From Azolla caroliniana (taxonomy: Eukaryota > Plantae > Polypodiophyta), in the NCBI GenBank assembly GCA_043228905.1, contig JBHGNT010000013.1:16368001-16432000 (forward strand): 64,000 nt of DNA, given 5' to 3'. This document shows, piece after piece, positions 1 to 35,383 of this stretch (within the stretch, counting starts at the first letter, position 1; each line of letters begins with the position of its first letter). Made by a program: the position numbers and the translations under genes. Below the pieces are notes generated by a model. That model was not told the DNA's origin. It saw only the letters and a list, made by a program, of their open reading frames with translations, and did no database searches.

Positions 1-226
1 ATAATTCTATCTCTATAAATTCTTAGCCTGTCTCTCCACTACATTTTATCTCTCTTCTCTCTTACTTTTTGCACGGGCTTCTATGCATCCTTTCCAGCCT
101 TTCTTTTCCCTTTTATTTTGCATATGCACAACTAATCACTTTTGTGTGCACACACATTGCACATGCACATTTTTTATCCCCCCCTTTCGCCTATTTTCCC
201 ACTCTTGAGCACGCCACATCACGACA
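1..226 (-). repeat. 3' LTR (partial) of Gypsy A
   Basis: Near-identical to 14962-15191; ends ...CATCACGACA (TGTCGTGATG on minus). Confidence 0.9.
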
Positions 227-399: not shown

Positions 400-3300
400 T
401 GACCTGTCATGTGGTTATTGGTACTGCTAGCTTAGTCCCATCGAGTTCAGCGAGATGGTAGGGAGCATTATGGTTTGCACTCATTACCACGTACGGCCCG
501 AACCATCGCTTTGCGAATTTCTGCATTGAGCTATGTTGATTGTCGATACTACTATCATATACAATCACCTAGTCTCCTTCTTCGATCTTCTGAGGGCGTA
601 GTCGGTCTGTCTTGTCGAATCGGGCTTTGTTACTTAGCCTAGCCGCTTCTAACCTATCCTTTTCCAACTCCAAGTCTTCGGGTCTTCTCTCAAGTTGCCT
701 TATCCTTGTGGCTAGAAGCTCTTCTCGACTCATCTCGTTTTCCCACGACATCGCTACCCATGAAGCGATCGTGTGTTCAATGGGCATCACCGGCTTTTGT
801 CCGTACATGAGTTCAGCTGGCATGAAACCTGTAACTGAGCTATGAGTTGTTTTGTTGGCCCACAAGGCATAAGGTAGTAACCGAGGCCAATTCCCGACTC
901 GCCCATCACAAGCCCTAACAATGGCTTTTACGATAGGCTCGTGTCCGCATTCTATCTTTCCATTAGCTTCCGAGTTATAAGCGGCCGTGAGAGAGAGCTT
1001 CACTCCAAGTCGGTCAAAGAGCTTTGTAGCTTTGTGAGCGTTCAGCTCTCCTCTGTCGGCCACTATCTTTCTCACACATCCGTACTGGCAGATGATATCC
1101 TCAAGTAAGAATTTACACACCCCTGCCGTCGTTTTGTTTGCTAAGGCTCACCCTTCTACTTGGTTTGTTAGGTCTTCTCTTGCTAGCACCAAATATTTCA
1201 TTTGGCCCACTCCCATCAGCATCGAAACCAAATCCACCATCCATTTGAAGTGTATGATGAGTGGGTAGGTCGGGTGCAACTCGTCCCTATGGCGTACTTC
1301 TCCTTTAACTTCTCAAATGTTGCCCACGTTCCTCTATGGCCCGCCCAAGGACTCTCGTGGAGCTCAGACACCAATGTTGTTTGGTCTTCTTCCTTTATGA
1401 CCACTCGTTGTGGTGTCCCCATCCTTCTCTTCGGGTGCCTCCAGAGGAATCCCCCTCGTAGGAAGTACTTGTACGCTTTCTTTCAGACTCTCTGTGCTTC
1501 CTGCTTCGACCATGAACTATCCACCGTCATTGAGCTTAAGAACTTGCCAATGTGTAGCCACTCCCCTTTGTATTCACTTTCGTTGAAGGCGTGGAGTACT
1601 TGCACATCTTGATCATCTATAGATGCTTGGGCCATCTTAAAGAAGTCAAGAGCGACATCCTCATCTTCAAACACCATGTCGCTTTCGCCCTTGAATCTTG
1701 CCTTGGATAGCATATCTGCCATGGCATTGTTCTTCCCTGAAATGTGGTGAATCTCTGGGTTCATGGATTTGATGTAAGCAATCCACCTTAGCATAGCTAG
1801 GTCAGGTGTTGCACATCCTGAAACCATCCCTAGGATTGGAAGGCAATACGTCTCTATTACCACCTCTGACCCGATTAGGTAATCTTTATCCGCCTTTACT
1901 GCGGACACAATACCCCAAAGCTCATGTTTTACTTGGGCATATCCTCGTTGTCGCTTGCTTAAGACCTTGGCTCCAAACCGGATGGCGTAGCGTGTACCAT
2001 CCTCTCCTTCTTGGTTTATGACCCATCCGATCCCTATTGGACTCGTATCTACCATCACGTAGATGGGCACCCCTTCCTTGTATATGGCTTTTCGTAAAGC
2101 TGGTGCCGCTACCAATATTCCTTTGAACCTCTTCATTGCCTCTGTGTGCTCTTCCTCCCACTTGAACTTCCGCCCCTTCTTAAGTAGCCCATACAAGGGC
2201 TCGGCTAGGTGAGCATAAGGCGGGATCCAGATGTGGTAGAATGCACAGGCACCAAGAAATTGCCTCACCTCTATTTGCGATTTACATTCTTCCTTCATGT
2301 ATGTGATGGCATCCACCTTTGCCGGGGATGACTTCCGTCCGTACGCCCCACACAAGTGTCCCACCACAAGGATCTCCGGTTGGCCGAATGCCGATTTCTC
2401 ACCCGAGAAGGTCAAGTGTGCATCTTCGAGTCTTTGTAGAACCTTCTCGCAATCGGAGATGTGATATGCCACAAAACATCTGCACTCATCTTTGTCCAAG
2501 GTTTCATCTTTCTTCGCTTCAGAGCACCCTTTTATGGGGATGTCATCGAGGAACGACACGGTGATGTCGGGGATGCAATCTCTCAATACCTTGTTCAATG
2601 CATTTACCATGTGGGCTACAGAGTTAGTGCCTCCTTGTGGCAAGGTACACATTCGCACTAGGTCGATAGGCGAATTCATCAACGCTCAGTCCGACCCCTG
2701 CATTTCGAATTGTCACTTGATTAACTGGTTGTAGGTCCTAGATGAAGCGTAAGGTGTCGTTCTTCTTTGGCACAGTGAACCACCGATTCGAGTATGGGGC
2801 GTTTGATGGCTCGAGGATACCCATCTCAATATTTTCCTTGAGTAGTTCAATCAACTTCGGGATGTGAGCTCTCGGAACTGGGATTGGCTTGATGTTCCAC
2901 GGTACATGCGGCACCGTAAAGATCACCATTGGGTCCATGATCTTAGGGTTTACACACCCTATCTCACCTGACGAGAAGGCGAAAGCCCTTTTGTGGCTTT
3001 CGATCATCCTTCTAAATCTTTCCTCCTCCCTGGGAAATAGGAAGCCACCCCCACCAATCCGGAGCTTTTGTCGCGTCTCGTCGGTGAACCGGTGCCTTAT
3101 GCCTCTTGGGTCCCGCAAGGTAGGATCAACCGCTACCCCCTTTATCCGATCCCAACTATTGTTAGGCAATGGGGCAGTCACAGGCTTCACCTTCTTGTCC
3201 ACGGTCTTGTACTTTGTTTGCACCTTGATCATCCTCACTTCCTCAATCAACCGCCCAAGCTCTTCGATGGTGGTGTACATGTCAACTGAGTTGACTGGAA

Positions 3301-4219
3301 TTACATTGTCTTCATTGAGGCCTGAAATGACTACCCTCTCCATCTCTTTGAGAGTGTTGTCGAACGAGACCACCTCCATGGCACCACTTATGGTGTCATC
3401 TTCCCCCAATAAATTACATTGTTTGAGATACCTTTCATATCTCTTGGCCCTAGACTTATCTCTATCACTTAAACTAGTAATTTTACAAGCTCCATTTTCG
3501 GAGAACCAAAATTGTTTCCTATTACATTTAATAGTTTTACAAGGGTTTAGGGTCTTAGTTTGCCTCGGGTTATTTCGGCCCCACTCTTTAATAGCCCGAA
3601 TAAAAAATCCTCTCGGTTCTCCCCTTTGAGGGAGGCTCGATTGCGCTCATGGTTGGGCCTCACCATAAGGAATTGGACCGAATGCTTCCCATCTTGGCTC
3701 TTGACCCTCGCATATGTCGACCCATTGTCTAGCACCTTCGTCTCCATGCGAGCCGTTGTGATGTATGGTTCACCCAAGATGACTCTTGAACAAAGAAATG
3801 TTGTTCTATTTCTATGTCCCCCACCTTCACACGTACATTCGTGCAAGCTCCGTATAACTCCTCGGTTGCTCGGGTTGCCGCTCTAATCTTCCACCCGTGT
3901 TTTGTGTTGATCGGCCACTTTCCATGGACATAAGGTTGATCTCAAAGCCATGGTCGATTAATGCTACAGTTGGCTCTTTTACATCTCCGACCCGTACCGG
4001 TGTCTCCGTTGTTGCTCTCGCCCAATGCGGCCTCGTGTAGTGACTGTCCGCATAGTCTTCGTCTTCCTCGGGAACCTTAGTTGACAATGCATTTACAATC
4101 GCGGGCTTTGCCACTTCTTGCTCCATCGAGAGCCGCTTCCCTCTTCATTAGGTCGATGATGACCTCATGGAATTCTTTCTTGGCAATTCCGAGGACCTCT
4201 CGCAGAGTAAACTCTACGT
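400..4219 (-). pseudogene. Gypsy A pol (protease, RT, RNase H, integrase), broken by stops and frameshifts
   Basis: ALIDHGFEINLM (protease, 3827-4126); WFTVPKKN and LPQGGTNS...FLDDI (RT); VDTSP..IGW and ADMLS (RNase H); LHESPWAGHRG, IVADRGE, EANGKIE (integrase). Confidence 0.92.
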
Positions 4220-4500
4220 TGTCGCGTTGTTATTTCCACATGCATCCGGACAGCTACGACCCGACAGAAGAACTCCAGCCTCAACGCTTCGTCTACGCCA
4301 CGCTCCTCCATTTCCGCGTTGTAGGCTTCCAAGTAAGATGGGACTTTGTCCCCGTTGAAACGGCCGACTCTTTCGACCACTCGCTCAACCGCTTGTTGCG
4401 CTGCTTCTCGCCTCATCACCACTCGTGCCGACTCCAACACCACTTAGGCCACCATCTCCGCAAGTTCATCGTCTTCCGACTCCATCCTCCCTTGCCGCCT

Positions 4501-4518
4501 TTCACGTCACGTTCACCA
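4501..4518 (-). other. Primer-binding site (tRNA-Trp-like) of element B; second copy at 8705-8722
   Basis: TTCACGTCACGTTCACCA versus plant tRNA-Trp 3' end TTCACGTCGGGTTCACCA. Confidence 0.75.
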
Positions 4519-4522
4519 AAGA

Positions 4523-5289
4523 TGTCGCGTTGTTACGCGCGTGCGTGGAGAAAGGCGAGACCACGGGGGTCTTGGACTAGGGAGCGACGGAGCGTAGGAA
4601 GTCGTGCTTCACTGCTTCTGGGGCATCTCAGAAACACACCGGAAGCAACCGAAGGGAGAGAGAGTGAGAGAGAGAGAGCGTGCTTAACACCAACTCACGC
4701 ACACACACGCACACACAGCCCGACCCGACTCACGCCCTTATGTATAGGAAACGCAGGGAAGAAGGGGAGCACCCGACACCAACAAGACGCCAATATACAC
4801 AGACAGACGCAAACGTATATGTATATATATATAAGAAGAATACATTCCCGGCTTCGAGCCGGACTGAGGTAGGTTACAGTAGTCGTCTGCTGCCAAGCCG
4901 CCGTCGGGGAGCTCACGGGCTCGTCGCGCCGAGCGGGGTCTTGCACAGGAGATGAGCTGAAGCAAAACCTAAGCGAACACGAAGGGAAAGAAGAAGAAGC
5001 AGAAGAAACCTAACCCTAAACCTACCGGTATACCCTCTAATGCAAAAATGGGCAACCCCTACACAAAGGGTGTTCCCTTCCTTTTATAGATCAAGGAAAG
5101 GGATGCGTTACAATGTGGAACAAACCCCGACCTACATGGGATCGTCTGTCCCGACTTGACTACTCTTGGGCGCCATAAAGGCGCTCTCGATATTCACACT
5201 AAATGTACGTGGGTGCGTACACACGCTGCACCCCGCCGATGTAGCCAATGTTTCTCGGTTTTCGCCTATGGCCGAAATTCTTCACGACA
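4523..5289 (-). repeat. Shared internal LTR of element B (767 bp)
   Basis: TGTCGCG...CACGACA; PBS on one side, PPT (5290-5304) on the other; TATA-like CTATAAAAGG on minus near 5080. Confidence 0.88.
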
Positions 5290-8011: not shown

Positions 8012-8690
8012 TTACCGTTCGGCCTCTTCCCGTTGTGATGGCACGCCGTCGCATACCTTCCTCTTAGCCTTCTCGGCTCGCTCGTTGTCTAGCCGTTGGC
8101 ACACCCTTCCAACCTTCGACCAGTCCTCCGTAAGCCCATTCGCTCCGTCATTGTCTTCGAGCTCAATCCCGATGGCTTCCCGTTCCGCTCGGTCGATCAA
8201 CCTGACGAACAAAAGGACTTTGTCCGCCCCCACCAAACCTTGTTCCCGCTCCGGGAGCCGAGCAAGCCGTCTCTCAAACTCTCGGAACGCCTTGGTCGCG
8301 CCCCGATGGGTTTTTGCCGATGCTACCCACTAGTCAAAGTCGTGCCGTCCCCGGCTCTTCCGCCACCCTCCGTATGCCTTCAGGAGCGCCTCTTCGAAGG
8401 CCTCCCACGAACTATGAGCCTCTCAGAGCTCCTTTATTTCCACATGCATCCGGACAGCTACGACCCGACAGAAGAACTCCAGCCTCAACGCTTCGTCTAC
8501 GCCACGCTCCTCCATTTCCGCATTGTAGGCTTCCAAGTAAGATGGGACTTTGTCCCCGTTGAAACGGCCGACTCTTTCGACCACTCGCTCAACCGCTTGT
8601 TGCGCTGCTTCTCGCCTCATCACCACTCGTGCCGACTCCAACACCACTTAGGCCACCATCTCCGCAAGTTCATCGTCTTCCGACTCCATC
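8012..8690 (-). pseudogene. gag N-terminal remnant of element B
   Basis: VGRFNGDKVPSYLEAYNAEM...KVLLFVRLID...GLTEDWSKV aligns with Gypsy A gag MGRFNGRDITSYLDAYKAKM...KVLLFIKTVD...GLTTDWAMV. Confidence 0.85.
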
Positions 8691-8726
8691 CTCCCTTGCC
8701 GCCTTTCACGTCACGTTCACCAAAGA

Positions 8727-9070
8727 TGTCGCGTTGTTACGCGCGTGCATAGAGAAAGGCAGGACCACAGGGGTCTTGGACTAGGGAGCGACGGAGCGTA
8801 GGAAGTCGTGCTTCACTGCTTCTGGGGCATCTCAGAAACACACCGGAAGCAACCGAAGGGAGAGAGAGTGAGAGAGAGAGAGCGTGCTTAACACCAACTC
8901 ACGCACACACACGCACACACAGCCCGACCCGACTCACGCCCTTATGTATAGGAAACGCAGGGAAGAAGGGGAGCACCCGACACCAACAAGACGCCAATAT
9001 ACACAGACAGACGCAAATGTATATGTATATGTTTCTCGGTTTTCGCCTATGGCCGAAATTCTTCACGACA
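8727..9070 (-). repeat. 5' LTR of element B with an internal deletion of about 420 bp
   Basis: Matches 4523-4826 joined directly to 5249-5289. Confidence 0.88.
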
Positions 9071-10570
9071 ACGCGACAATCAAGGATCCTCTCCTCCACT
9101 ACCTTCTTCAAGTCCGTTGCTTGTTCGATCTTCGAGCAAAGCTTGAAGTTGGGGGGGTTCCCCTTCTCTTTCCATCTTTCGTCGCGTGCTTGAGACAGGT
9201 TCGGCTCTTCCCTTCTTCACGCACCTCGAGTGTCGTATTTCCTTGATGGACCGACTCCCTCGTCATTTTCTACCTTCTTCTCTTCTACCATTACTTCGTA
9301 GTTTTGGCAAGCGGCTTCCACTAAGCCTGTCTTTTCTTCCACCGGATCCTTCCACCCGGTTGCTTCTTGGACCCTTCTTTCCGCTTCATCCGGTTCTTCT
9401 CTTTTGAACTTCCCCTTAGAGAGGCTTCCAAGGATTGATGGACAAAAGTCAAACTCTCCTCTTGCCTCACCTCTTTCCCCACTTGGATCCCAGCCGATAC
9501 CGAGTAGTGGACGGCTTCAACATGTCATGCTTCGGCCTCCTCCATTAGCCTTCTCATGCCCCCTCGGCCTTGATTCAATCCCAAGGGGCGCCTCGTCTCC
9601 GTCTTATAGACCCTATTGTTCCAAAGATAGACAATATCCTTTCTTAGGGCCTCTTGAAAGTCTCCACACTCCCTTCGTAGGTGGTCGGGGTTGTCGCACC
9701 ACATACATCTTTGCGCGAACGGGGGATGCCGATCTTGAGGGCCGCCACTCTCTCTCCTAGCTTGTGCTATTTGGAGATCTCGCACCATCTTTGTCAGCTC
9801 GTCTATTGCCGACCCTCCCGACGGTGCTTCAACCACGTTTCTCTCGGGGACGAACCTTGCATTTGCTTGCTCTCTTTCTTGACGTATTCTACCACCCCTA
9901 GGTTCGTGTGTCTAACTAATGGAGCCTGTGGATGTTTGGCCGTTCAACAAAGACCCATCGTTCCATTCCCTTCTCTTATCAAAGCGGCTACAAACCCGTT
10001 TTACCATAGCCCAATCTGTCGTGAGCCCATCATCAGTTTCGAGGAGGGACCCTAGCTTCTCTCGGTCTCGTGCATCAACAGTCTTTATGAATAGTAGGAC
10101 CTTGCTTGTATCAAGCACCATCTTATTGAGAGCCGAGAGTTGTGCGAAGCACTTCTCAAATTCTTGTAAAAGTACCATAGTATTTCTCCCCTTGCCGGGA
10201 AGCTCAACCCACTCCATTAGATCCTTTTTCGAACTTCTGAGTGAGTCATCAAGGCCGTACTTCTCAAGGAGTCTTTCTTCGAACTCCACCCAATTGCAAC
10301 AGTCCGCTTGGATCTCGAGTACCTCTACGTGGATACTTGGCGTTACCACTCTAGCGAATCCGGTTAGCCTCCTATCTTCGGGGACGTTTCGCATAAGCAT
10401 TTTGGCCTTATAGGCATCCAAGTAGCTCGTGATATCTCTTCCATTGAACCGACCCATTGTGCTGACCACCGTCTCTATGGCTTGGTCTAGGCCGGTGATG
10501 CCTTCTCGGGCATTTCCCAAGCGGTCCACCGCCGCCGCCATCGCTTTAGCAAGTTCTCCTCCTCGCATCT
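9071..10570 (-). pseudogene. Gypsy A gag
   Basis: ORFs 9912-10619 and 9525-9836; zinc knuckle CMWCDNPDHLRREC. Confidence 0.88.
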
Positions 10571-10600
10571 TGGTTCTCCCTTGCCGCCCTTTCACGTCAG

Positions 10601-13114
10601 TTTCAGATCGATAACCCAACCTCGGAGCAACTCATCCGATATTTCGGTGAGTACTCTGTTGCCGGCAAAGGCTATCGGACGCAGGGCGGCGAAGATCCGC
10701 TATTCAGGGAGATAGCTCGAGTGCTCCATGAGTACGGTCACGTGTACCCCCGACCCCCTGTCATGCCAAAAAATCGGGCAGGGATGATCATAGCCACCTA
10801 TGAAGGGATCAAGGTGGACTGGCCGGTGTTGATTGCAGACGGGTTGTGCATGGCAATCGACATGGTACGAGGAAAGGACGGCAAGGAGGGCCGGAAGCTG
10901 TGGCACGCCGTAGCTCAATGGATAACATTGCTCGTGCCGCCGGTCGAGACCGTCCAGCCAAAGAAGCGGCCAAGAGTATCGGAAGGAAGCACCTCGAAGC
11001 CGGCGTCCAAACGACAGCAGCTGCTGGCGTCGAAGGCGACGAAAGGGAAGAAACGGGTCCCAGAACCGGAGGAGGTGTCACCGGTCCGACCCGTCAAGAT
11101 AACCTTACGGAGACCGGGACAGAAGGAACCGGAACCCTTGACGGCACAGACACATGCCGTGACACAGGAAGAGGAAACGGAGGAGCCAGAAGAGCACCTC
11201 CAACGACGGTCAAGAAGTAGGACCGCCGAAACAGGAGGGGAGCGGTCGTACCCGCGAGAGGCAGAAACGCCCCCAACTCAACCTGAGCAAACCACAAGGG
11301 AAGAACCGGAACCGGTGCGTAGGGAACCGGTCTTGTCGACTTCTATAGAAGAAGTCAGTCCAACGGCTCCGGAGACGGCGAGAACCGGAACTCAACAGCC
11401 GGCGAGCCCAGCCAGAGCACACGGCGGCCAAGGAGTAGAACCAGAACGACATATGCAGGCACTCAGGCCAGACAATTCCACAGGGAATGAGCCGACCCGA
11501 CCAGTACAGCAACAGGGCACCAGTAGCATGTGGCTACGGTGGGTAGGCGAGCAAATCGCCGGAGCGGTCGAGTATATAGAGGCGGAAGAGAGAGCGCACC
11601 AGGAACGGTTGCTCGTCACAACCGTAGATCTAGAGACGGCCCGGTCCAGAATCCGGAGCCTTGAACAAGACTTGGACAGGGTCACAAGGGAAATGGCTCA
11701 ATTCGCTTTGACAACACAAGTCCAAGCACCGGTGACTCCGGGCAATGTACAGAATAAAGTGTCAAATCAACCTGTACATAGCAATCAGACCCCGGCAACG
11801 GAAACCGTTCCGGAGAGAAATGCAGCACAAGCCCAAGAGCTTGCGGATTTAAAGGATGAGCTAGCTGCCCAAGAAGCGCTGAGGAGCCGCGAAAGAGAAT
11901 TGAAGACGGCAGCGGAGGCAGAACTCAAAAAGACTGCTGAGAATCTACGCCGGGCCGAGGAGAGCTTACGGAAAGGCCACCAAGCGTACGACCGGCTCAA
12001 GGAGGAGAAGGAGAAAATGCTGCAAGAGAAGGAGAGGCTCCGGAGGAACGCCGAAACAGAAGTAGAGCGCCTGAAAGAGGAACTCCGGCAGGTAAAGGAC
12101 CGGGAGGACCGGAACCATCGCCAGATCAACGGCAAGCTCAAACAAAAAACGGAGGAATTTGAGAACTTGCACCGGGAGTATAAACGGTTGCAAACGGAGC
12201 ACAAGGAACGGACGGATGAGCTCCGGCAAGCAGTTGATCGGACCGCAACCGCATTCGCCAAGGAACAAGCGGAAAACAGAAGACGGTTGGAAGAGGCGGA
12301 GAAGGTTCGGACAGAGCTCCTCAGGCAACAGCAGGCGGAAAAAGAAAGAGCGGCGGAGGTACTGCAGAGGCTGCAAACGACATATCAAGGGCAGCTGACG
12401 CGCTACAGAGAGCAGGCGGAGGATACGGCAAATCTCATCAAGCAGTTGAAGGAGGAGCGACAAGTGGTGGAAAGCAGAGCACAAATGGGAGCAAGTCGCA
12501 TCCAGGATATAATGCGGGCCTGGTTGAACCAGACCAAGAGCTTGATTGACAACGGGTCCGTCAAATGGTGGACCAAGTGGGCCACGAACGCGGTGGAACT
12601 CCAATTGCTCCGGGCTGATGTAGAGAACCGGCGGAAGGAGGGAGATGATTGCTATATGCTGACTTCCGAAGACTTCACCGGCATAAGAGATGAGCTTGCC
12701 GAAGACTTTCAAGCCTTGGCAGAGGACCAACTAGAGCAAGTCCGGCAACTTGTAGCTCAGCTGGACGACGACAGGCTGGAGGCGCAGATCTAGTTTGAAA
12801 GCTACGAGAGGTCCCGGATCCGGGGAGAGAAGGAACGAGAACCAGTTACGGTCAACCTCAGTGATGAGGAACCGTTACTGGAAGGAGACCGGACCGGAAG
12901 TAGTCAAACGGAGATGTCGGAGCCAGAGAGACAAACGGAGCAGCCGGAGTCAGCGAAACAAACGGAGCAGCAGCAGCAAGCAGAGCAGCCGGAGCAGCCT
13001 CAGTCCCAACCGCAACCACAGCAGCAGCAGCAAGCACAGCCGCAACAACCACAACCGGAAGAACAAGTGGAAATTCTTGAACAAAGTAATTTGGACAATT
13101 TGGGTGAACAATGA
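10601..13114 (+). CDS. Retroelement accessory ORF: N-terminal plant-transposon-protein-like domain, long coiled coil and Q/E-rich tail; 5'-truncated, one internal TAG at 12791
   Basis: 690-aa ORF 10721-12793; frame is open back to 10601 and continues in frame to 13114; GIKVDWPVLIADGL motif; E/K/R/Q-rich helical region. Confidence 0.7.
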
Positions 13115-13147
13115 AGGGGCCGAGAAGGGTTCGACGTACAAGGTACT

Positions 13148-13164
13148 GTCCCACGGGCGTGCCA
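13148..13164. other. tRNA-Arg 3'-end motif adjacent to the LTR of element D
   Basis: GTCCCACGGGCGTGCCA versus plant tRNA-Arg(UCU) 3' end GTCCCAC(C/T)GGGCGTGCCA, 2 nt from the LTR. Confidence 0.75.
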
Positions 13165-13166
13165 TG

Positions 13167-13586
13167 TGTTACCGGCCGGCAAGGAGTCCAAAATACGGAG
13201 TGAAGGAATTAATTAGATATGGTTGTAAATGAGCATAGTGTGGACGGACGGACTGGAAACGGTATGCCGTTCCAGATCCGGACGGATCCCGAATAGGTGC
13301 GAGAGGCACCGTTTTGTACTACGGGCCGGAAACCTATTTAAAGGCCCGGACCCCATTGTAATGACAGCTGATAATTAGTGGAGCTTATGTTGTTTATACT
13401 TCTGTCTTGATTTCCGTTCTGTAATCACTGTTATATCTTACGCGTGTAATTAACCAAAGCAATCTAATTGTGTAACCTACGTAAGTCGGTGTAATCGTTG
13501 AATCTTAATCCTATGCCGTAATCACCCTTTGGTGAAGTGTCTCCGTGACACCTTGTGTTAGGCCTTGTCCGGCTAAGCGAATAACA
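13167..13586 (+). repeat. LTR of element D (420 bp)
   Basis: Inverted termini TGTTA/TAACA; CCTATTTAAAGG TATA-like box near 13333 followed by a T-rich R/U5-like segment. Confidence 0.75.
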
Positions 13587-13642
13587 CCGCCATCGCTTTA
13601 GCAAGTTCTCCTCCTCGCATCTTGGTTCTCCCTTGCCGCCCT

Positions 13643-13660
13643 TTCACGTCGGGTTCACCA
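13643..13660 (-). other. Primer-binding site of Gypsy A, complementary to tRNA-Trp
   Basis: 18-nt TTCACGTCGGGTTCACCA equals the recalled plant cytosolic tRNA-Trp 3' end; 5 nt from the LTR. Confidence 0.85.
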
Positions 13661-13665
13661 ATTTA

Positions 13666-15191
13666 TGTCGCGAAGTTTCGCGCACGTGTGTTACTTGGGC
13701 GGGACCACGAGGGTCTTGGACTAGGGAGTACTCAAGGGATAGAGAAGACCCGAGGTTTACTTTACAACAATACTACTTCCTGACCCCTTCCCGAGCAAGG
13801 TCTCATTGCCCTTTGTTTTGTGAGGACGGTGGCTCTTGTTGATCACGACTCGTCGACCTTTCGAGCTCACCGCACGAGCCAAGTGATCAAACGGGTACAA
13901 GCAAGATAAGCATGCACGATGAACGCACAAGGGGAAGATAACACAAACATGAATGCCCGTACGTCTTTATGAGGAGGAGAGGTGCATGGGCACGCCTGAA
14001 CGCTCCCTCGTCACAAGACATCGAACGTACGAGGAAGACAAAAAACACATGCACAAATGCTCGTACCCCTTTATGAGGAGAGGTGCATGGGCACGCCCGA
14101 AACGCTCCCTTGTCACAAGATGGCCGAACGTACAAGGAAGACACAAACACACACACAAAATGCTCGTACGCCTTCATGAGGAGGAGAGGTGCATGGGCAA
14201 GCCCGAACGGTCCCTCGTCACGAGACGGCCAAACGTACAAGGAAGACACAAACACATGCACAAAATGCTCGCACGCCCTTATGAGGAGGAGAGGTGCATG
14301 GGCAAGCCCGAAACGGTCCCTCGTCACAAGACAGCTGAACCTACAAGGAAGACACAAACACACGCACAAATGCTCGTAAGTCTTTATGAGGAAGAGAGGT
14401 GCATGGGCACGCCCGAAATGCTCCCTCGTCACAAGACGACCGAATGTACAAGGAATACACAAACACACTCACAAATGCTCGTACGTCTTTATGAGGAGGA
14501 GGGGTGCATGGGCACGCCCGAATGGTCCCTCGTCACAAGACGGCCGAATGTACAAGGAAGACACAAACACACGCACAAAATGCTCGTACGCCTTTATGAG
14601 GAGGAGAAGTGCATGGGCAAGCCCGAAACAGTCCCTCGTCACAAGACAGTCGAACATACAAGGAAGACACAAACACACACACAAATGCTCCTACGTCTTT
14701 ATGAGGAGGAGAGGTGCATGGGCACGCCCGAAGGAAAAATGGCGATAGTCTCCTCCTCCCAAAACGTCCTCCTGAATGAGCCCCCCTCGACCTCCTTTTA
14801 TAGGAAAAAAAGAAGGGGGGTCCGCCAATTTTGTCTTCAATGAAAAAGGAATAAAATTCCTTAAATCACGCTACACTGTAAGACTAGATTTGAACCGTGC
14901 ACCTCTAGCTAGTAGTCAATGTGACTATTCACTAGCCCATTAACTCTCTCGTATATAATATATAATTCTATCTCTATAAATTCTTAGGGCCATGTCTCTT
15001 CTCTACATTTGATCTCTCTTCTCTCTTACTTTTTGCACAGGCTTACATGCATCCTTTCTAGCCTTTCTTTTCCCTTTTATTTTGCATATGCACAATTAAT
15101 CGCTTTTGTGTGCACACACATTGCACATGCACATTTTTGACCCCCCCCTTTCGCCGGGTTTTCCCACTCTCGAGCATGCCACATCACGACA
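13666..15191 (-). repeat. 5' LTR of Gypsy A (1526 bp)
   Basis: TGTCGCG...CACGACA; TATA CTATAAAAGGAGG on minus near 14792-14804. Confidence 0.9.
13940..14731. repeat. Tandem array of about 105-bp units (about 7.5 copies) inside the LTR
   Basis: ATGAGGAGGAGAGGTGCATGGGCA recurs at roughly 105-bp intervals. Confidence 0.92.
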
Positions 15192-16317
15192 CCGTATTTG
15201 TCGTGTTCGCTTTTTCTACCCATGCTTGGGCCGTCTGACGTATCTCATCTTGCACGGCCCAATCAGCATTTTTTGTTTACTGTCGTGTCGTGACTTGTTG
15301 GACTGCCGCCATAATCGTATTGACGGCAGGCCCTTTGCCTTTGCGTAGTAGACATTGTGTGGCATAATGTCCTAGCTGTTGGCAAACAAAACAATGGACG
15401 CTAGATTCGCCTTTCTCGGCAACTGGTGGTGCATGCCGATCCCCGGTGTGACTTGCTCCTCCCAGTCCTGATTCATTCTTCTGAGTGTACGCGGTAGTTG
15501 TTGTTGGTCCCGGCACGGTTCCTGGTGTCGGTCATCGCCCGAACTTTCATCGTACCGCCGTTGGTGCCGATACTGACAATGTTTCCCGCGAGGCCCATTG
15601 AAGCCGCCCCGTTTGTTCGTCGGACGGCAATTCTCGTAGCGTCAGCCTCTATTATATTTGTGGTTGGCATAGTAGTCTTCATCCTCCGGCTCTTCTTCTT
15701 TGGAATCATTGTTATTTCGGCGATTCTGGTAGTGCCGGTCATCGCGTGGGTTCCGATCCGTATACCAGGGTCGTTCTTCCTGGTGCTTTTGCTCATTACG
15801 GCGAGGGGGGCACTGTGTTTCCACGCTTCGTACTGTGGGCGTGGATCTGTTCAACATATTGTACTCACACTGCTCGATTGTGTGAGCTTTCGAGTGACAG
15901 ATTGGGCAGTGGATTCGCATGTAGCATAAAACTGCGGAATGCCTAGAATTTAAGCAAATCGTGCACTGGATTGCCTGGCGAAAATGTCGTTCCTCATCCT
16001 AAAGTAACGTTTGCCGTAATGAGGACATGGAAAATGTTTCCTCTTCTTCGTCCAGCTCGAGTTAGCGCTCGTTCTATGACCATATCGGCCGTAACTTCTC
16101 CTTTCACGCTATTGTTGTTGAGTATCATCCGTATCGGTCGTCGTAAAGCTGCCATAAATGTCTCCCGAGCCTCGTCCTCCGTCGGGCCTCATTCTAATTT
16201 CCGTTGTAGGTTTTGGAAGCGTAAATTGAAATCCGCTACAGTCTCAGCCGGCAATTGTTTAATTGTATAAAATTGCCCGAGGATTTTGCATTGCGGCACC
16301 CTCGATGAAAGAAACGT

Positions 16318-17194
16318 TTTCGTGCCTCTTGGCGCCGGATCGTTGCGTGAGTTGGGTGGGAACTGCTGGGGTTTTGGACTAGGAGGAAAGAAAATTCTAA
16401 GGCAATTAAGAATATGAATTATATTGTAAGAAAGAAAGATATGAAAAACTCGTGAATCCCATGAGTATAGTGTATTAGTGAGTACTCAAATTAAGAGAGA
16501 AAAAATTTAGTTAGCAAACTCGTGGATCCCACGATTATATTATATTAATCCCTTTGTAAAATAATCAACAACCTCTATACATCTTTCTCTCTTCCTTATA
16601 TAGTGTTGGAAGAGTCTAAGTTTATCCCATGCAAGCATCATGCTTTTCCTATCTTTAGTTTTCATGCACACTACATGTGCATGATTAGCTTTCTATCTCA
16701 TCTTTTCTTTTAACTCGAGTGTCTATGTATGAGTAACTTTTTGGACCATGCATATCTAAAATATTTACATGGGATAAAGTTTAGTATAACTTTAAAATTC
16801 ATAATATGCTAGTATAGTGATAAAGCTTAACATTATTAACATGGAAGTGCAAGGTTCGAATCTTGCCCTATGCATGTAATATATATATTTTTATACTTTC
16901 TTCTATTTACAAATATGTCTCTTCATCCGGTGAGAGACTCACACTGGCCTTCTTCATCCGGCTCTTTCCGGTTCTGCTTCATCCAGTGCTTGCTAGTTTT
17001 CTTTGTCCGTTTCTCACCAACTCTCACCAGCCTTCTTCATCCGGCTCTTCCTTGCCGGTTTACCGATTCCTCTTTGCCGATTTACCGATTCCTCTTTGCC
17101 GGTTCCTCTTCGTCCGGTTCTCACCGGGTATTTCATTCTCTATCCGGATGGACAAAATGCAATTTCCACGTAGTGTGTAAATTACACTATGACA
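16318..17194 (-). mobile_element. Solo LTR (TGTCG-type Gypsy group)
   Basis: Homologous end to end with 21605-22444; flanks ACGT/ACAC; GGGGTTTTGGACTAGG motif shared with LTRs of A and B. Confidence 0.85.
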
Positions 17195-17978
17195 ACACAG
17201 AAAGACCGACTGCAGCTGGTCGAAGGTCGTGATTGCTGGCAGATCCATCTACGAATGCCAAAACGCCGCTCTCCCATCCAGGGTTAATCTGAACTCTGTC
17301 ATTTTGGACTGGTGCGCTACTTCTTCCGAAAGTTTCAGTGCTATGTGATTTGAATTCCAGACATTCAGGAACAGTCGAATGTGGGTTGCAGTGTCGGTTT
17401 CGTCGTTGAAGCAGGGATAAGAGAAGGCCATGCTAGACGTTATGGCGGACGGGGAAAGACCACAGTGTGTGTGTGGTGAGCACGCTTCCTGCTTGTCGCC
17501 GAGGTATTTGGGGAGCGAGAAATCATCTTTGTGGTTCCGACAGTTATCACTGAGGTCATTGAGGCGAGGTTTCTACCGTGCGCGTTCCTCTGCCTGGCGT
17601 GTGATGGACCGTGTGATTGGTTGGTCTTGTCGTGTTGGTTCTCTGGGACGTCTACGACGAAACATCCATTCGTTGTTGTTCGTCTGTGAGGAGACACAGA
17701 TCACCAAGTGTGCCAAAAGTGTTACTGATTAGGAACACGATCTACAGTCAGTCCTTCGACCTAGACCTCAAAGTTACTGCGTTGCAACGAATGGTACCAT
17801 CGTACCGTAATATTTAATGGGATACCTCCCGTATCCTAACAGCGTATAAGGGAGACGAAGACAACCGAACTCCTTAGACCGGGCACTAGTAACCGCACTG
17901 TCACTCACGCCTACGCTCTTACGATTACGCTACGCTACCAAGAATCACAGACACACAGTAGATTAACCACAGATACGT

Positions 17979-19219
17979 TGTCGTGAAGATTTTCGACAAT
18001 GGTGTGAAAATCTAATAAGACGTACGAAATCAAGTGTCAATCATATAAAACAATAATAGTGAATATACTAATTCTAAGTAAATTTAATATCTTAGTACAA
18101 AAGACGAAGATCTTGAATAGATGCACTTTACTACATAAGAAACAGACATATAAGTGTCAACTTATGTGGGTAAGAAGTTGTGAAAGAAAAAGAGAAAATT
18201 TGTGAGATATCCCACATAGACAAGACGAATAAGGCTCTCACCATATATAAGGTAGAGCAAAAGTTATTATCTTTGTGTGGAGCATAGAGAGTTCAAGGTA
18301 ACTTGAACTAAGAGTGGAGGTGGCCTAGCCACTTGTAAAGGTTTTGGCCAACCAAAACGGAACTGGACGGTAACCGGTGATCCGGCGGTATCGGTATCCA
18401 GCATCCGACGACCGACAGCCGCATCGACGGCATCCGGCGGCGGCCACCGGTAACCGACGGCATCCGACGAGGCGACAACCACCGGTAACTAGCGGCATCT
18501 GGCGCTGGCGAGGCGACGACATCCGACGACTAGATAAATAAATATATAAATATATATACATCTACAAGGAGGGCAAGTAACGATTCAAACCTTGCACCTC
18601 CAAGTTAGGAATCAATTGGCTTACCACTAAGCCAAGATATTGAGTTGAAATTATATTTCTATCATTGTACTTTTCCATATAAATTGTCATACATGAGAGC
18701 TAAAATGAGTGACATGGTTATCATGCACCACATGTAATACATGAGCACCAAATGGCAAACATGCATTTTATGCATGTCTTGAACCCTCAAATGCTTGAGG
18801 GTTCAAGACATGCATAAAATGAGTAACATGGTTATCATGCACCACATGTAATACATGAGCGCCAAATGGCAAACATGCATTTTATGCATGAGGGCATCTA
18901 TAAAAGAGGGAATGAAAAAGATCAATGGGGGGGATTCTTTGATAAAAAGAAAGCTTTGTACTTTAAATCAAAATTAATATTAAGAAGAAAATTCGTTATC
19001 CCTTTTGATGATATACCTTGTTCTTGAAATCTAAAGTCAAGAGTTCTTAATCTCTCTCTCAATCTAAAATCAAGCATTCTATCTTATCTCAATCTCTCTC
19101 TCTTTCAATCTATCTTAATTCCTTTCCCGCTAAAGCTTGTGCAAACTTGGAGTCCTTCCGGTCCAAAACCCCGGCGGTTCCGCCTCGCGATCCGCGCCTA
19201 GTGACAGATCTTCACGACA
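17979..19219 (+). mobile_element. Solo LTR (TGTCG-type Gypsy group), inserted in the LTR of element C
   Basis: 12-bp inverted termini TGTCGTGAAGAT/ATCTTCACGACA; flanks ACGT/ACGC; TATA CTATAAAAGAGGG near 18898. Confidence 0.88.
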
Positions 19220-19433
19220 ACGCACAGGGATCAGAGAAGATCAAACTCTATTAAGATACGCTTTCTGCATTCAAAATTACACGCTACCACTATCAGAGGA
19301 TTTCTGCCCTTTATATACACAGGGTCTTTTAGCCGTTCACGCTTCCCGCGTGAACCGTTTACATGCGTTACATTTTTACTATATTCTATATTTTTGCGCT
19401 CCTGTCCATCGGTTACTATTCCGGCGGACAACA

Positions 19434-19990
19434 ACTGACAGCAGGGTACCTACAACTTGTGCACATAATAAAAAACTTGGAGTTTTTTGGATGTTGCTTG
19501 CCCCCATTACTATATGGTATATATGGACAACAAGGTGTACCAAGGTATTTTCAGCACACAAATGCCCCCCTGCTGAATCGATTAAGCTCATCTGGCACAC
19601 ATTAATAACTACACTAAGAGCTGAATATGAGCGGATTGATGGTACTAATGAGGCTGAATTTTCGAAAGCGATGGTGTACTACACCGATGGCTGCAGCAAA
19701 TGGAATGGATATACTGTGGAAGTATGAAGTACCCAAATGGTTGTTCCCCCCCCCCCCCCATTGGATGAACGAGGGGCGTGAAAGACATGGCATGTGGGAT
19801 AGTGAATGTAGGTGATGTGCATGAAAGGATGGCTAGAGCCATATGTGAAAGAGTAAGGTAAATATAAGCAAGATCTCTTGTGTAGGATAGGATAGTCTTG
19901 GCTCGGCCTTCCCAAGAAAGGGATCGAGTTTTATGTATATTTTAACTAAAGGAGTATATTCTTTTTTGGAAAAACATGCACCTTAGGACT
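19434..19990 (+). mobile_element. L1-type LINE 3' fragment
   Basis: WYIWTTRCTKVF...PPAES...W and WKYEVPKWLFPPP, similar to 39791-40058. Confidence 0.65.
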
Positions 19991-20464
19991 AATAACATTA
20001 GTTTTAAATGAAGGAAATCAACAATTGACTATTGTAATGCCTCAATTGGAACCACATCTAATTGCTTTATTCTAGATTGTTCATGCACATGCTCGAACTA
20101 GCAATGTTGGATAAGCGGTTTTCAAGAAAAACTTTGCGTTTGAATGGTTTTTGTTGAGATACAAGCTCAACATTGGCTGGATCGGCTGTGCAAACCGAGA
20201 ACCGGACCGGTGTCACCCGATGCGTAAACCGATACGCAAACCGGTGCGTAATGAGAAGCCGTAGCGGTGCGTAAACCACGAGGCCGTTGGAAAGATATTC
20301 CACATAGGAATATATTTTGGGAGTTAGTGTAGAGCTCAGTTATAAGCATTGAAGTACGTGTTTGTACTTCTGTCAGTCCGTATGGACTTGTATAAAAGTG
20401 CTCACTGAGCACATCCTATGTATAGACTGAGTATTATTTTTTGAAATAGAGTTGTGTGTATTGA

Positions 20465-20533
<69 letters not shown>

Positions 20534-20708
20534 GCGTACAGTGTGTGTCCAAGCTCTCCATTAAACTTGTGTTTTCCTACGTTCTGTTTTTTGTTGCTTC
20601 CGCACATTGTTCTTTTCACATGGTATCAGAGCACGAGGGTCGAGAACCTTTGCAGCCGACCTTAGCTCGAGAAGAAAACCTAACCTTCGTAAAGAACACG
20701 AAAAACAA

Positions 20709-23700
20709 AATGGATAGAGGCATGGCTAGCTCGCTTTCAACCGAGAAGCTTGACAAAAACAATTACGCATCTTGGTCCTACAAGATGCACTAGTACCTAC
20801 TCGGGCATGGATACTGGAGCTATGTCGACGAAGCAAATGACACAACACCCGATTCGACACACAAAGACTTCCTGGCTTGGGAACAGTCCGCGAGCAAAGT
20901 TCTCTAGTGCTTCGCGTCTTGTGTGGGCGAACAGCTTCTAAGCTATATTCGGGATGCGAAAACGCCAAAGGATTCTTGGGGAAATCTGAAAAAGATTTTG
21001 ACCGCAAGCACCACAGCCAGAAAACTCCAACTCCAACAAGCGACAACGCGATTTGTTGATGGTTGATTACACCTCGAAGATCAAAGATATATGCGAATCC
21101 TTAGCCTCCATCGATGTGAACGTCGAGGAAGGCGAGATGGTGCAGATCTGTCTCGGGGAACTGGTGTCAAAGTTCGGAGCGTTCCGAACTGTTGTGTGCA
21201 CAAGGGAGAATACGTCGTCGTTTTTCGACCTACAGTCGATGCTCCTTAAAGAGCAGAACCACGCGAGTGCGTCGATGAGTACACACGCTGATAGCAAGAT
21301 GTTTTACACGGAGGGAGATAGGCCCCGTGGTCGTGGCAGACGAGGCGAGTCGGTGCGCAATGGAGGTGGCCGACGAGACCAAGGAAGAAGGCACCGGAGT
21401 GATGCCGACAGCAATTTCGAACCCTCCGGAAACAGGGGGTCTAGGTGACGAGAACCAACAAGGGAAATCCGTCACGGAATGCTAGTATTGTGGCAAGAAA
21501 GGCCACAAGGAGAGCGAGTGCTAGAAGAAGCGTGCTGATTCGGAGAAAACCGGATCCGGATCCGTACAAACCGACAAAGGAAATCGGCAACGATCGCACT
21601 ACACTATCGCGCCTTTCAGCTCCGGATCGTTGCGTGAGTCATGTGGGAACCACTGAGGTTTTGGACTAGGAGAAAGAAGAATACAATATAAGGCTAGTTA
21701 TGAATAGGTAGAAAGAGAAGTAAGAAATAAAACTTGTGAATCCCGTGTGTTTAGTGTATTTAATCAATATTTAGATTGTAAGAAAGAGAATTTTGATGAT
21801 AAACTCATGAATCCCACGAATATATTAGATTGATCAATCCTTGTAAAATAATCAACAACATCATACATCTTTCTCTCCTCCTTATATAAGGATGGAAGAG
21901 GCTAAGCATAGCTTCATGCTTTTTCTAAAGTGTTCATGCACACTAAATGTGCATGAGTTGCTTTTTACACTATGCTTTTATTTCCTAAATATAATGCTCA
22001 TGCTCGCTAGATGTGCACGAGTAATTTTTTATAGGTGTACATTTTTCTTATAAATAAAGTATTTATGCATTCTAAAAATGCATAACTTACCTTTTAATAA
22101 AAGTAGGTGTAAATAAAGGTCTTATACGTATTAAATCTATATTTAGAACACTAAGGATAAGTTAGTACAATGGTAAGGTTGGGATTTGCCTACGTGGAGG
22201 TATAGGGTTTGAATCCTACCCTATGCATGTGACAATCTTTTCTTCTATTTATAAATTTGTCTCTTCATCCGGTGAGAGACTCTCACCGGCCTTCTTTATC
22301 TGGCTCTTGCCGGTTCTTACCGGGTCCTCCTTACCAGTTTCTCCTTCATTCGGTTCTCACCAGTTCTCCTTACCGGTTCCTCCTTGTCCCATCCGGAGAA
22401 ACCAAAATGCAATGTTCACGTAGTGTGCGAATTACACTACGACAACGCCGAAGGATCCGAAAAAATTGGAAAGGGGGCAGCCTTCGTGACAAGACACAAG
22501 GCGAACTCGATGAAGAAGACCACCCCGAAATCAGACGAGGTGTGGTACGTTGACTCCGGCGAGTCAAACCACATGACGAGCCATAAGGAGTGGTTCTCAT
22601 ACCTTGAGAAACCGATGGAACCAGGAGTAGTCGCAACAAGAGACGACACTCCGCATCCGATCAAGAATGTCGGTGAAGTTCCCCTGAGCCATGTCGGGCA
22701 AAAACGGAAACTCATGAACGTGTTACACGTCCCGACAATCACGAAGAATCTAGTGTCGATCGGGCAGATCGTCGACCAGGGGATACAACTCCGGTTCACG
22801 CATCTCGGGTGCTTCATCGAGGAGGAAGGCCAAGTTATTATGCAAGGGCGTAGAGACGGAAGGATGTTTATCCTCGACACCAATGACGTTGGCACCGCAA
22901 TGTTCGCAAAAGGACAAAAAGTCGAGTCAGATATCGACTTGTGGCACAAGCGGATAGGCCACATCAACTATCAAAGGCTTCAGGACTTGCAATCAAAACA
23001 TGTTGTGTTCGGATTGCCCAAATTCAGTGGCCGGAAGGCCCAAATTTGTGAAGCTTGCCAGCTAGGGAAGCAACACCGACTTCCTTTCCCAAACGAGCAT
23101 CATCGGAGCCGGAACAAGCTCGACTTGATACATTCGGATGTATGGGGGCCGGCACAGAACGTTAGTCTTGGTGGGAGTCGATATTTTGTCTCCTTCATCG
23201 ACGACTACACGCGGCACACGTGGATCTATCTCATTGAAAAGAAGAGTGAAGTCTTCGAATGATTTTGGGACCTCAAAAGCTTCATAGAAAGGGAAACAGG
23301 GAGAAAGATCAAGTGCATGCGGTCGGATGGCGGAAAAGAGTACTTTTCTGACCAATTCAACAATTATCTGCAACAAATGGGAATTCGGCGTGAATTCAGT
23401 TGCAGGTATACGCCGGAGCAAAACGGCGTAGCCAAAAGGAAAAATCGGTCAGTTGTGGAAGCAGTGCGGGCAATGCTGGAAGAAAAGAGCTTGCCCAAGT
23501 TCTATTGGGCCTAAGCGGTGTAAACCGTGGTCTACATCCAGAATCGGATTGGAGACAAAGTGTCGGTGCATGAGCTGTATTTCGGAAGGAAGCCGAATCT
23601 ACGATACTTGAGAGTTTTTGGTAGCATTGCATATGTGCATGTGTCGAAGGAGAAATGGAGGAAGTTGGACGCAAAAGCCGAGAAGTGTATCTTGGTCGGC

Positions 23701-35332: not shown

Positions 35333-35383
<51 letters not shown>

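What the first reader, a model, noticed from the sequence alone, without database searches (positions are those of the whole stretch)
14885..22222. tRNA-like Pol III cassette (A-box plus B-box, fixed 43-nt spacing) built into the U3 of four different Gypsy LTRs
Seen: TGGGCTAGTGA..GGTTCAAATC (14939 to 14896, minus), TAGTATAGTGA..GGTTCGAATC (16810 to 16853), TGGCTTAGTGG..GGTTTGAATC (18634 to 18591, minus) and TAGTACAATGG..GGTTTGAATCC (22163 to 22206). A-to-B start distance is 43 nt in all four, as in tRNA genes, although the surrounding LTR sequence has diverged. Each lies upstream of the LTR TATA box, divergent from it in three cases and co-oriented in Gypsy A. No SINE tail or TSD is visible. 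Known: Cassandra TRIMs carry 5S Pol III promoters in their LTRs, and TFIIIC-bound B-boxes act as chromatin barriers in yeast and animals. Inference: a retained insulator or Pol III module that may keep the promoter usable after insertion into heterochromatin. Not seen in the element B LTR.
Basis: partly seen in the sequence, partly recalled or inferred. Interest (0 to 1): 0.8.

Follow-up and report, generated by a model that had tools for sequence, protein, structure and literature searches.

The report
tRNA promoter kept in retrotransposon ends
Several families of jumping genes in this plant carry the same worn-down tRNA-gene promoter just upstream of their own promoter, where it has kept its two protein-binding boxes and their spacing but lost the tRNA fold, so it likely serves as a docking site that helps keep the element's promoter open, although no binding or activity has been tested.

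Summary
Observation confirmed: four A-box/B-box pairs, 43 nt start to start, lie in U3 of Phygy-type Gypsy LTRs (tRNA-Trp PBS, 4-bp NCGN target duplications). They belong to three families, not four, and three of the four LTRs are solo LTRs. The cassette is a family-level part: contigs from 3-4 labelled organisms bridge it to its LTR flanks, and an independent U5-motif scan found four more copies. It is one shared module: the 10 nt before the B-box are 83% alike across families, the interior 37%, flanks about 31%, and it is the only U3 stretch that aligns across families. Two copies are two-headed (two A-boxes around one palindromic B-box). No TSD, tail or cloverleaf. Against function: only 3 of 8 B-boxes fit GTTCRANNC, family D seems to have T at C56, and B-type LTRs lack it. 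Best reading: a retained TFIIIC-type docking module, not the element's promoter; binding untested. Closest known: Helenus/Cassandra TRIMs, but these LTRs head gag or gag-pol elements. The scan noted tRNA-like LTR cassettes before in fungal-type genomes.

The parts
13666..15191 (-). 5' LTR of Phygy-type element A (1526 nt, TG...CA, 105-nt tandem array in R/U5)
   Evidence: ends and PBS; 91% match of 14962-15191 to window 1-226
14929..14939 (-). cassette c1 A-box (sense to LTR A)
14886..14896 (-). cassette c1 B-box, fits GTTCRANNC, CpG-free
14794..14803 (-). TATA box of LTR A, 93 nt downstream of the B-box start
   Evidence: motif match; function inferred
13644..13660 (-). primer-binding site of element A, tRNA-Trp type (isotype assignment recalled; Phygy is 81% Trp)
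569..3646 (-). broken pol of element A in Gypsy order RT-RNase H-integrase
   Evidence: Pfam RVT_1, RT_RNaseH; rve E 3e-5, below curated cut-off, read with X at stops
1..226 (-). start of the 3' LTR of element A, preceded by a purine tract; window ends before its cassette
16318..17194 (-). solo LTR of family C (877 nt), flanks acgt / acac
   Evidence: empty-site contigs skip 16303-17199 in runs X1, X2, X3
16810..16863 (+). cassette c2: A-box 16810-16820, B-box 16853-16863 (fits GTTCRANNC); antisense, A-box 207 nt from TATA
17979..19219 (+). solo LTR of family D (1241 nt), flanks acgt / acgc
18581..18634 (-). cassette c3: A-box 18634-18624, B-box 18591-18581 with T at C56; antisense, A-box 264 nt from TATA at 18898
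21605..22444 (-). solo LTR of family C (840 nt) nested in a Copia element, flanks acac / acgc
22163..22216 (+). cassette c4: A-box 22163-22173, B-box 22206-22216 with T at C56; antisense, A-box 274 nt from TATA
4523..5289 (-). intact LTR of element B: same lineage, no cassette, no RY motifs (negative control)

Best explanation
The cassette is one tRNA-derived A-box/B-box module shared by several Phygy Gypsy LTR families, which have kept its boxes and 43-nt spacing but lost the tRNA fold, and it likely works as a docking site for the Pol III factor TFIIIC that would help keep the neighbouring Pol II promoter open. Shown: it sits in U3, 90-275 nt 5' of the TATA box, in many copies of families A, C and D; it points either way and in one family both ways; it has no SINE boundaries. 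Inferred: it was captured once from a tRNA gene or SINE head by an ancestral LTR and then inverted or duplicated, and it is under selection as DNA rather than as RNA. Untested: TFIIIC binding and any effect on chromatin or transcription. It is unlikely to make the element's genomic RNA, because it is antisense in most families and a T4 run follows the B-box start within 32-60 nt in 6 of 7 LTR copies.
For: Family-level: contigs of runs X1 and X11 span TATA side, c1 and upstream U3 (table 8 records 1-3, 9); for c3, contigs bridge cassette and upstream flank in all 4 runs, four organism labels (table 8). A scan by the U5 end motif, blind to the cassette, gave further copies L019, L057, L062 and L012. 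Common origin: one copy per family (c1, c2, c3, L062) gives identity 0.65 in the A-box, 0.83 in the 10 nt before the B-box (not a selection criterion), 0.76 in the B-box, 0.37 in the 18-nt interior, 0.31-0.32 in the flanks; the same 10 nt are only 0.29 alike to the non-LTR A/B repeats at 35.3-35.7 kb. Apart from LTR ends and U5, the cassette is the only stretch that blastn aligns between families C, D and L057/L062, and A matches L057 there in reverse. In family D, sites with a 20% or larger variant: A-box 1 of 11 (a purine for a purine), B-box 0 of 11, the 14 adjoining nt 0, interior 6 of 18, upstream flank 13 of 56; Fisher p 0.003, or 0.02 without the B-box. In run X11 (another organism label) summed contig depth peaks on the c2 bin, 35,889 against 36 in the bin before. 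43 nt start to start equals the 32-bp gap that is the commonest in yeast tRNA genes, and yeast TFIIIC also contacts bases just upstream of the B-box (PMC11724288, passages). L057 and L062 carry a second A-box on the other strand at 42 nt from the same palindromic B-box. Acceptor stem 0-3 of 7 pairs and anticodon stem 0-2 of 5; no ARAGORN or Rfam tRNA hit. TFIIIC sites act as barriers in yeast and animals (PMC12409998, passages).
Against: Only 3 of 8 LTR B-boxes (c1, c2, L057) fit GTTCRANNC; c3, c4, L019 have T at C56, L062 and L012 are otherwise broken. C56 is a TFIIIC contact and C56G abolishes TFIIIC-dependent targeting (PMC11724288; PMC5391098). No variant of 20% or more is listed at 18587, which suggests T56 is the family D majority, though the site is 17 nt from a masked edge. 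The Fisher test drops to p 0.12 if the B-box is left out and the flank is taken to 18720. Between c2 and c4 the A-box window is only 0.53 identical and TATA, U5 and the block 3' of the B-box are as conserved as or more than the boxes. Fixed spacing within family C is expected by chance (P of no indel 0.53-0.70 per pair). c1 shows no depth peak in X11 (87 against 902 and 140). Complete B-type LTRs (window B, L025, L034) and the deleted solo L028 lack it, so it is dispensable in the lineage. [quoted passage not shown]
Confidence: 0.5

Rival explanations
1. Neutral relic: an ancient tRNA or SINE fragment landed in an ancestral U3 and is carried along without function.
For: 5 of 8 B-boxes are broken and family D seems to have T56; B-type LTRs do without it; tRNA-like A/B fragments also occur outside LTRs in this window (35271-35680); an earlier scan note read a fungal case this way (e1-9852194).
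Against: Decay is uneven: interior and flanks are at background across families while boxes and the pre-B 10-mer are kept and the spacing is 43 in all 7 ungapped copies; variant sites avoid the boxes in family D. CG sites decay often in these copies (14 decayed, 10 kept between c2 and c4), which can explain T56 in single old copies.
Confidence: 0.2
2. A true Pol III gene: the cassette makes a short (about 90-115 nt), mostly antisense RNA that regulates the element (silencing trigger, decoy or primer of small RNAs).
For: Both boxes are kept, upstream DNA is AT-rich and a T4 run follows at +32 to +60 in 6 of 7 copies, the layout described for plant tRNA genes (PMC13578239); a short hairpin around the B-box is kept with two double-sided changes between c2 and c4. 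The two-headed form would give complementary RNAs.
Against: The transcribed interior is not conserved (0.37); c3 has no T4 until +234; the hairpin is not kept in c1 or c3; orientation differs between families.
Confidence: 0.15
3. The tRNA fragment was re-used as a binding site for some other (Pol II) factor that reads the palindrome around the B-box; the Pol III likeness is historical.
For: The best conserved stretch is the 10 nt before the B-box plus the B-box; T56 seems tolerated; in L057 and L062 the core is a near-perfect palindrome.
Against: The A-box and its distance are also kept, which a single-site factor would not need.
Confidence: 0.1
4. Landing pad: the cassette attracts elements that integrate upstream of Pol III genes, as Ty3 or TRE5-A do.
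For: A/B boxes outside tRNA genes attract TRE5-A (PMC5391098, passages); two earlier scan notes propose this for fungal-type LTRs.
Against: No insertion is seen upstream of the A-box in the four window copies or in L019, L057, L062, L012; Phygy itself inserts at NCGN words.
Confidence: 0.05

Closest known systems
Helenus TRIMs (TRIMp3; Kojima 2024, PMC10886601; parts 1-4 of 6 read, passages and supplement searched)
   Same: tRNA-derived sequence inside the LTR, with conservation concentrated on boxes A and B and no functional tRNA.
   Different: Helenus elements are 311-1263 bp non-coding TRIMs thought to be transcribed from the Pol III promoter; the one plant case (Selaginella, 120-bp LTR) shows it in sense in the listed sequence. 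Here the LTRs are 700-1500 nt, keep a TATA box, head gag-pol (A) or gag (family C, L001) elements, make 4-bp NCGN duplications, and carry the module mostly antisense or two-headed. The paper notes that 'not a few' Repbase LTRs hold part of a tRNA but studied only TRIMs.
Cassandra TRIMs (as described in PMC10886601; PMC7215508 and 10.1101/2023.07.14.548913 seen as listing and abstract start only)
   Same: Pol III internal promoter built into a plant LTR and kept over long times.
   Different: 5S type-1 promoter, non-coding miniature element, and Pol III transcription shown; here a tRNA type-2 promoter, function untested.
Phygy clade of non-chromovirus Ty3/gypsy (Neumann et al. 2019, PMC6317226; passages and supplement file 3 row 15)
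   Same: 4-bp NCGN target duplication, tRNA-Trp PBS, RT-RH-INT order.
   Different: No tRNA-like LTR module is mentioned ('tRNA-like' 0 occurrences in the main text); element A also has a 3-kb antisense ORF block after its PBS.
tRNA-gene and ETC barriers bound by TFIIIC in yeasts and animals (PMC12409998, passages)
   Same: B-box, with or without A-box, acting independently of a tRNA product and of orientation would fit the layout seen.
   Different: Those are host chromosomal sites shown by experiment; not described in plants (PMC13578239) and not shown here.

Membership tests
Helenus (TRIMp3) | tRNA-derived sequence with conserved A and B boxes inside the LTR | tested here: met
Helenus (TRIMp3) | TRIM: short (about 0.3-1.3 kb) element without coding capacity | tested here: not met
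   A has gag-pol; a family C LTR end is followed by PBS and a 290-aa ORF 35% identical to A's gag (L001); LTRs alone are 840-1526 nt; family D has no internal region in my data
Helenus (TRIMp3) | Pol III promoter placed to transcribe the element | tested here: not met
   antisense in c2, c3, c4, L019; T4 run 40 nt after the B-box start in the sense copy c1
Phygy | 4-bp NCGN target-site duplication | tested here: met
   flanks acgt/acgc, acgt/acac, acac/acgc, acgt/acgc, each pair with 1-2 transitions; empty site holds one copy; definition
Phygy | tRNA-Trp PBS | tested here: met
   PBS at 13660-, L001, L058, L042, L100; the Trp assignment of the motif is recalled, no tRNA set was on hand
Phygy | RT/RH/INT group with Phygy in a tree | not tested
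   no Phygy reference proteins were available; viral contigs held no relative
tRNA gene | cloverleaf with acceptor, D, anticodon and T stems | tested here: not met
tRNA-derived SINE insertion (per copy) | own TSD and A-rich or simple-repeat tail; absent from sister LTR copies | tested here: not met
   no TSD of 7 nt or more in c1-c4, no A6 run in any; present across family copies
TFIIIC-bound barrier / type-2 Pol III promoter | B-box core GTTCRANNC | tested here: inconclusive
   3 of 8 copies fit; family D majority appears to be T56
TFIIIC-bound barrier / type-2 Pol III promoter | TFIIIC occupancy and barrier or promoter activity | not testable with these tools
   needs ChIP, gel shift or reporter

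The most novel reading that the evidence does not exclude
Coding Phygy retrotransposons of seed-free plants captured a tRNA promoter long ago and keep it, in either or both orientations, as a portable TFIIIC barrier that shields their Pol II promoter from surrounding heterochromatin; this would be a first Pol III-factor chromatin barrier in plants, carried by a transposon.
Probability: 0.25. Interest if true: 0.85.

Novelty: new variant of a known kind. Interest (0 to 1): 0.52.

Why it matters
Small-RNA promoters in LTRs are described for miniature non-coding elements that use Pol III to copy themselves; Kojima argues their autonomous partners must rely on Pol II. A tRNA promoter kept beside the TATA box of coding Gypsy families, pointing away from the element, would need another job. 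[quoted passage not shown] If it is a relic, it is still a marker that ties together LTR families whose U3 regions no longer align.

Tried and rejected
No whole genome was held, so genome-wide family alignments could not be made. ARAGORN and Rfam found no tRNA on any cassette. Viral contigs gave nothing by RT protein or U5 pattern. Short loci could not be extended. No RNA holder listed, so expression was not examined. The ESM Atlas was unavailable. A host thaumatin-like protein had no close named relative (best unfused named hits ferns at 57-59%), so the host is only placed as a land plant, likely seed-free. Rejected: four independent SINE insertions (shared pre-B 10-mer, no TSDs); a tRNA mimic in the genomic RNA (mostly antisense, stems lost); landing pad (no insertions upstream). 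Literature searches that found no description of this module in Phygy or other coding plant Gypsy LTRs; the library lacks most subscription papers and Repbase, and the element-level supplement of PMC6317226 was not seen.
Full report
Observation. The four motif pairs are at the stated places, each with 43 nt from A-box start to B-box start. A composite scan found 6 such pairs at 43 nt against a shuffle mean of 0.15 and a maximum of 2 in 100 shuffles; three of the six are a non-LTR repeat at 35.3-35.7 kb, c2 and c4 are related, and c3 missed the filter, so the count stands for about three independent units. ARAGORN and Rfam see no tRNA.

The host elements. c1 lies in the 5' LTR (15191-13666, minus) of element A, which has a PBS at 13660, a purine tract and 3' LTR start at 226, and a broken RT-RNase H-integrase pol. 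c2 (17194-16318, minus), c3 (17979-19219, plus) and c4 (22444-21605, minus) are solo LTRs flanked by ACGY-like 4-mers; contigs of the empty c2 site exist in three runs. A 4-bp NCGN duplication and a Trp PBS define the Phygy clade (PMC6317226, passages and supplement file 3); the Trp reading of the PBS motif is recalled and no tree was built. c2 and c4 are one family (C; 73%). Family C is not a miniature element: L001 shows its U5 followed by a PBS and a gag-like ORF 35% identical to A's, and L012 shows its U3 preceded by a purine tract. Family D could not be tied to an internal region. The host is a land plant, likely seed-free; a host protein gave no close named relative.

Family-level, not per-copy. 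Laying genomic contigs on 14700-17300 gave records spanning c1 and both flanks in runs X1 and X11, and loose ends at c2 that continue as c4-like cassettes. On 18511-18720, 551, 751, 237 and 201 contigs were laid in four runs with four organism labels, and each run has records bridging c3 to its upstream flank. A pattern for the U5 end, blind to the cassette, returned 119 loci, 39 of them plant-like LTR ends. Of 13 with enough sequence, L019, L057 and L062 carry the cassette, L025 and L034 are complete B-type LTRs without it, and the rest are deleted, cut or unclear; a profile search added L012 with a broken B-box. No TSD or A-tail flanks c1-c4.

One module, unevenly conserved. With one copy per family, identity is 0.65 in the A-box, 0.83 in the 10 nt before the B-box, 0.76 in the B-box, 0.37 in the interior and 0.31-0.32 in the near flanks. 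The pre-B 10-mer was not used to pick the copies and is not shared with the non-LTR repeats (0.29), so it argues for common descent. Outside the LTR ends and U5, the cassette is the only stretch blastn aligns between families C, D and L057/L062; A matches L057 there in reverse. In family D all 20 variant sites of 20% or more were listed: 1 of 11 in the A-box, none in the B-box or the 14 adjoining nt, 6 of 18 in the interior, 13 of 56 in the flank, p 0.003 to 0.12 depending on whether the edge-near B-box and far flank are counted. Acceptor and anticodon stems are gone. L057 and L062 have a second A-box on the other strand, 42 nt from the same palindromic B-box, and loose ends of that type appear in all four runs. 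This shows that the module occurs sense, antisense and two-headed.

Against function. Three of eight B-boxes fit GTTCRANNC. C56 is contacted by yeast TFIIIC (PMC11724288, passages) and C56G abolishes TFIIIC-dependent targeting in Dictyostelium (PMC5391098, passages). CpG decay can explain T56 in single old copies (14 of 24 CG sites differ by decay between c2 and c4), but one search lists no variant at 18587, so T56 seems to be the family D majority, with the caveat of a masked edge 17 nt away. Within family C other LTR blocks are as conserved and the fixed spacing is not significant alone. c1 shows no depth peak in X11. B-type LTRs lack the module.

Mechanism. Shown: position, family-level presence, shared origin signal, kept boxes and spacing, lost fold. 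Inferred: selection acts on DNA, and the module is not the promoter of the genomic RNA, being mostly antisense and followed by T4 within 32-60 nt in 6 of 7 copies. Most likely job (0.5): docking TFIIIC, with or without TFIIIB and Pol III, 90-275 nt upstream of the TATA box to keep U3 open, by analogy with tRNA-gene and ETC barriers (PMC12409998, passages). Rivals: neutral relic 0.2, short antisense Pol III RNA 0.15, another factor reading the palindrome 0.1, landing pad 0.05.

Comparison and novelty. It works like the tRNA-derived LTR segment of Helenus but fails Helenus membership on size, coding capacity and orientation (PMC10886601, parts 1-4 of 6, passages and supplement). That paper says that not a few Repbase LTRs hold part of a tRNA, so tRNA pieces in larger LTRs are not unheard of. 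Searches found no description for Phygy or other coding plant Gypsy LTRs; Repbase and most subscription papers were not searched. [quoted passage not shown] The scan has noted tRNA-like LTR cassettes in fungal-type genomes, but no note on this module turned up for this genome. Verdict: real, a new variant of a known kind, function open; interest 0.52.

Noticed in passing
window 35271-35941: Three full and two B-less copies of a different tRNA-like A/B unit (43-nt spacing, canonical 5-bp T-stem) in a tandem repeat inside an element with about 140-nt inverted ends (34894-36481), apparently within a host intron; does not share the LTR module's pre-B 10-mer.
   Followed up: partly
window 16600-16800, 18690-18900, 21900-22100, 15050-15190: RY motifs (CATGCA) cluster in U3 of cassette-bearing LTRs (1-13 per LTR) and are absent from the three complete B-type LTRs and from L028 and L052. 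RY is the site of B3 factors such as ABI3 and VAL (recalled).
   Followed up: partly
window 4216-4219, 16314-16317, 17975-17978, 21601-21604 and the matching right flanks: All four Phygy-type insertions are at ACGY words, and left and right copies differ by transitions, as expected from methyl-C decay.
   Followed up: partly
window 10535-13657: Element A has a 71-nt duplication of the PBS-proximal gag start around a 3-kb block that holds a 747-aa antisense ORF (10550-12793) with no Pfam match.
   Followed up: no
window 4220-9070: Element B is a gag-only unit with a U3-deleted 5' LTR, an intact 3' LTR followed by a second PBS and gag start, then another LTR end: a partial tandem; no pol found.
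   Followed up: partly
window 13920-14732: About seven 105-nt tandem repeats in the R/U5 part of LTR A.
   Followed up: no
window 16920-17150, 18360-18530, 22260-22400: GC-rich ACCGG/CCGGT repeat arrays at the 5' end of U3 in families C and D, recalling the palindromic repeats of Sirevirus LTRs (recalled).
   Followed up: no
L070 1576-1640: A tRNA-Arg(TCT)-like 3' part (Rfam 28 bits) inside another element nested in a family C LTR; probably the PPT-replacing tRNA copy that other notes report for this genome.
   Followed up: no
L057: A 356-nt 3' LTR that joins a B-type start, the two-headed cassette of L062 and a family C U5: U3 modules appear to be swapped between families.
   Followed up: partly
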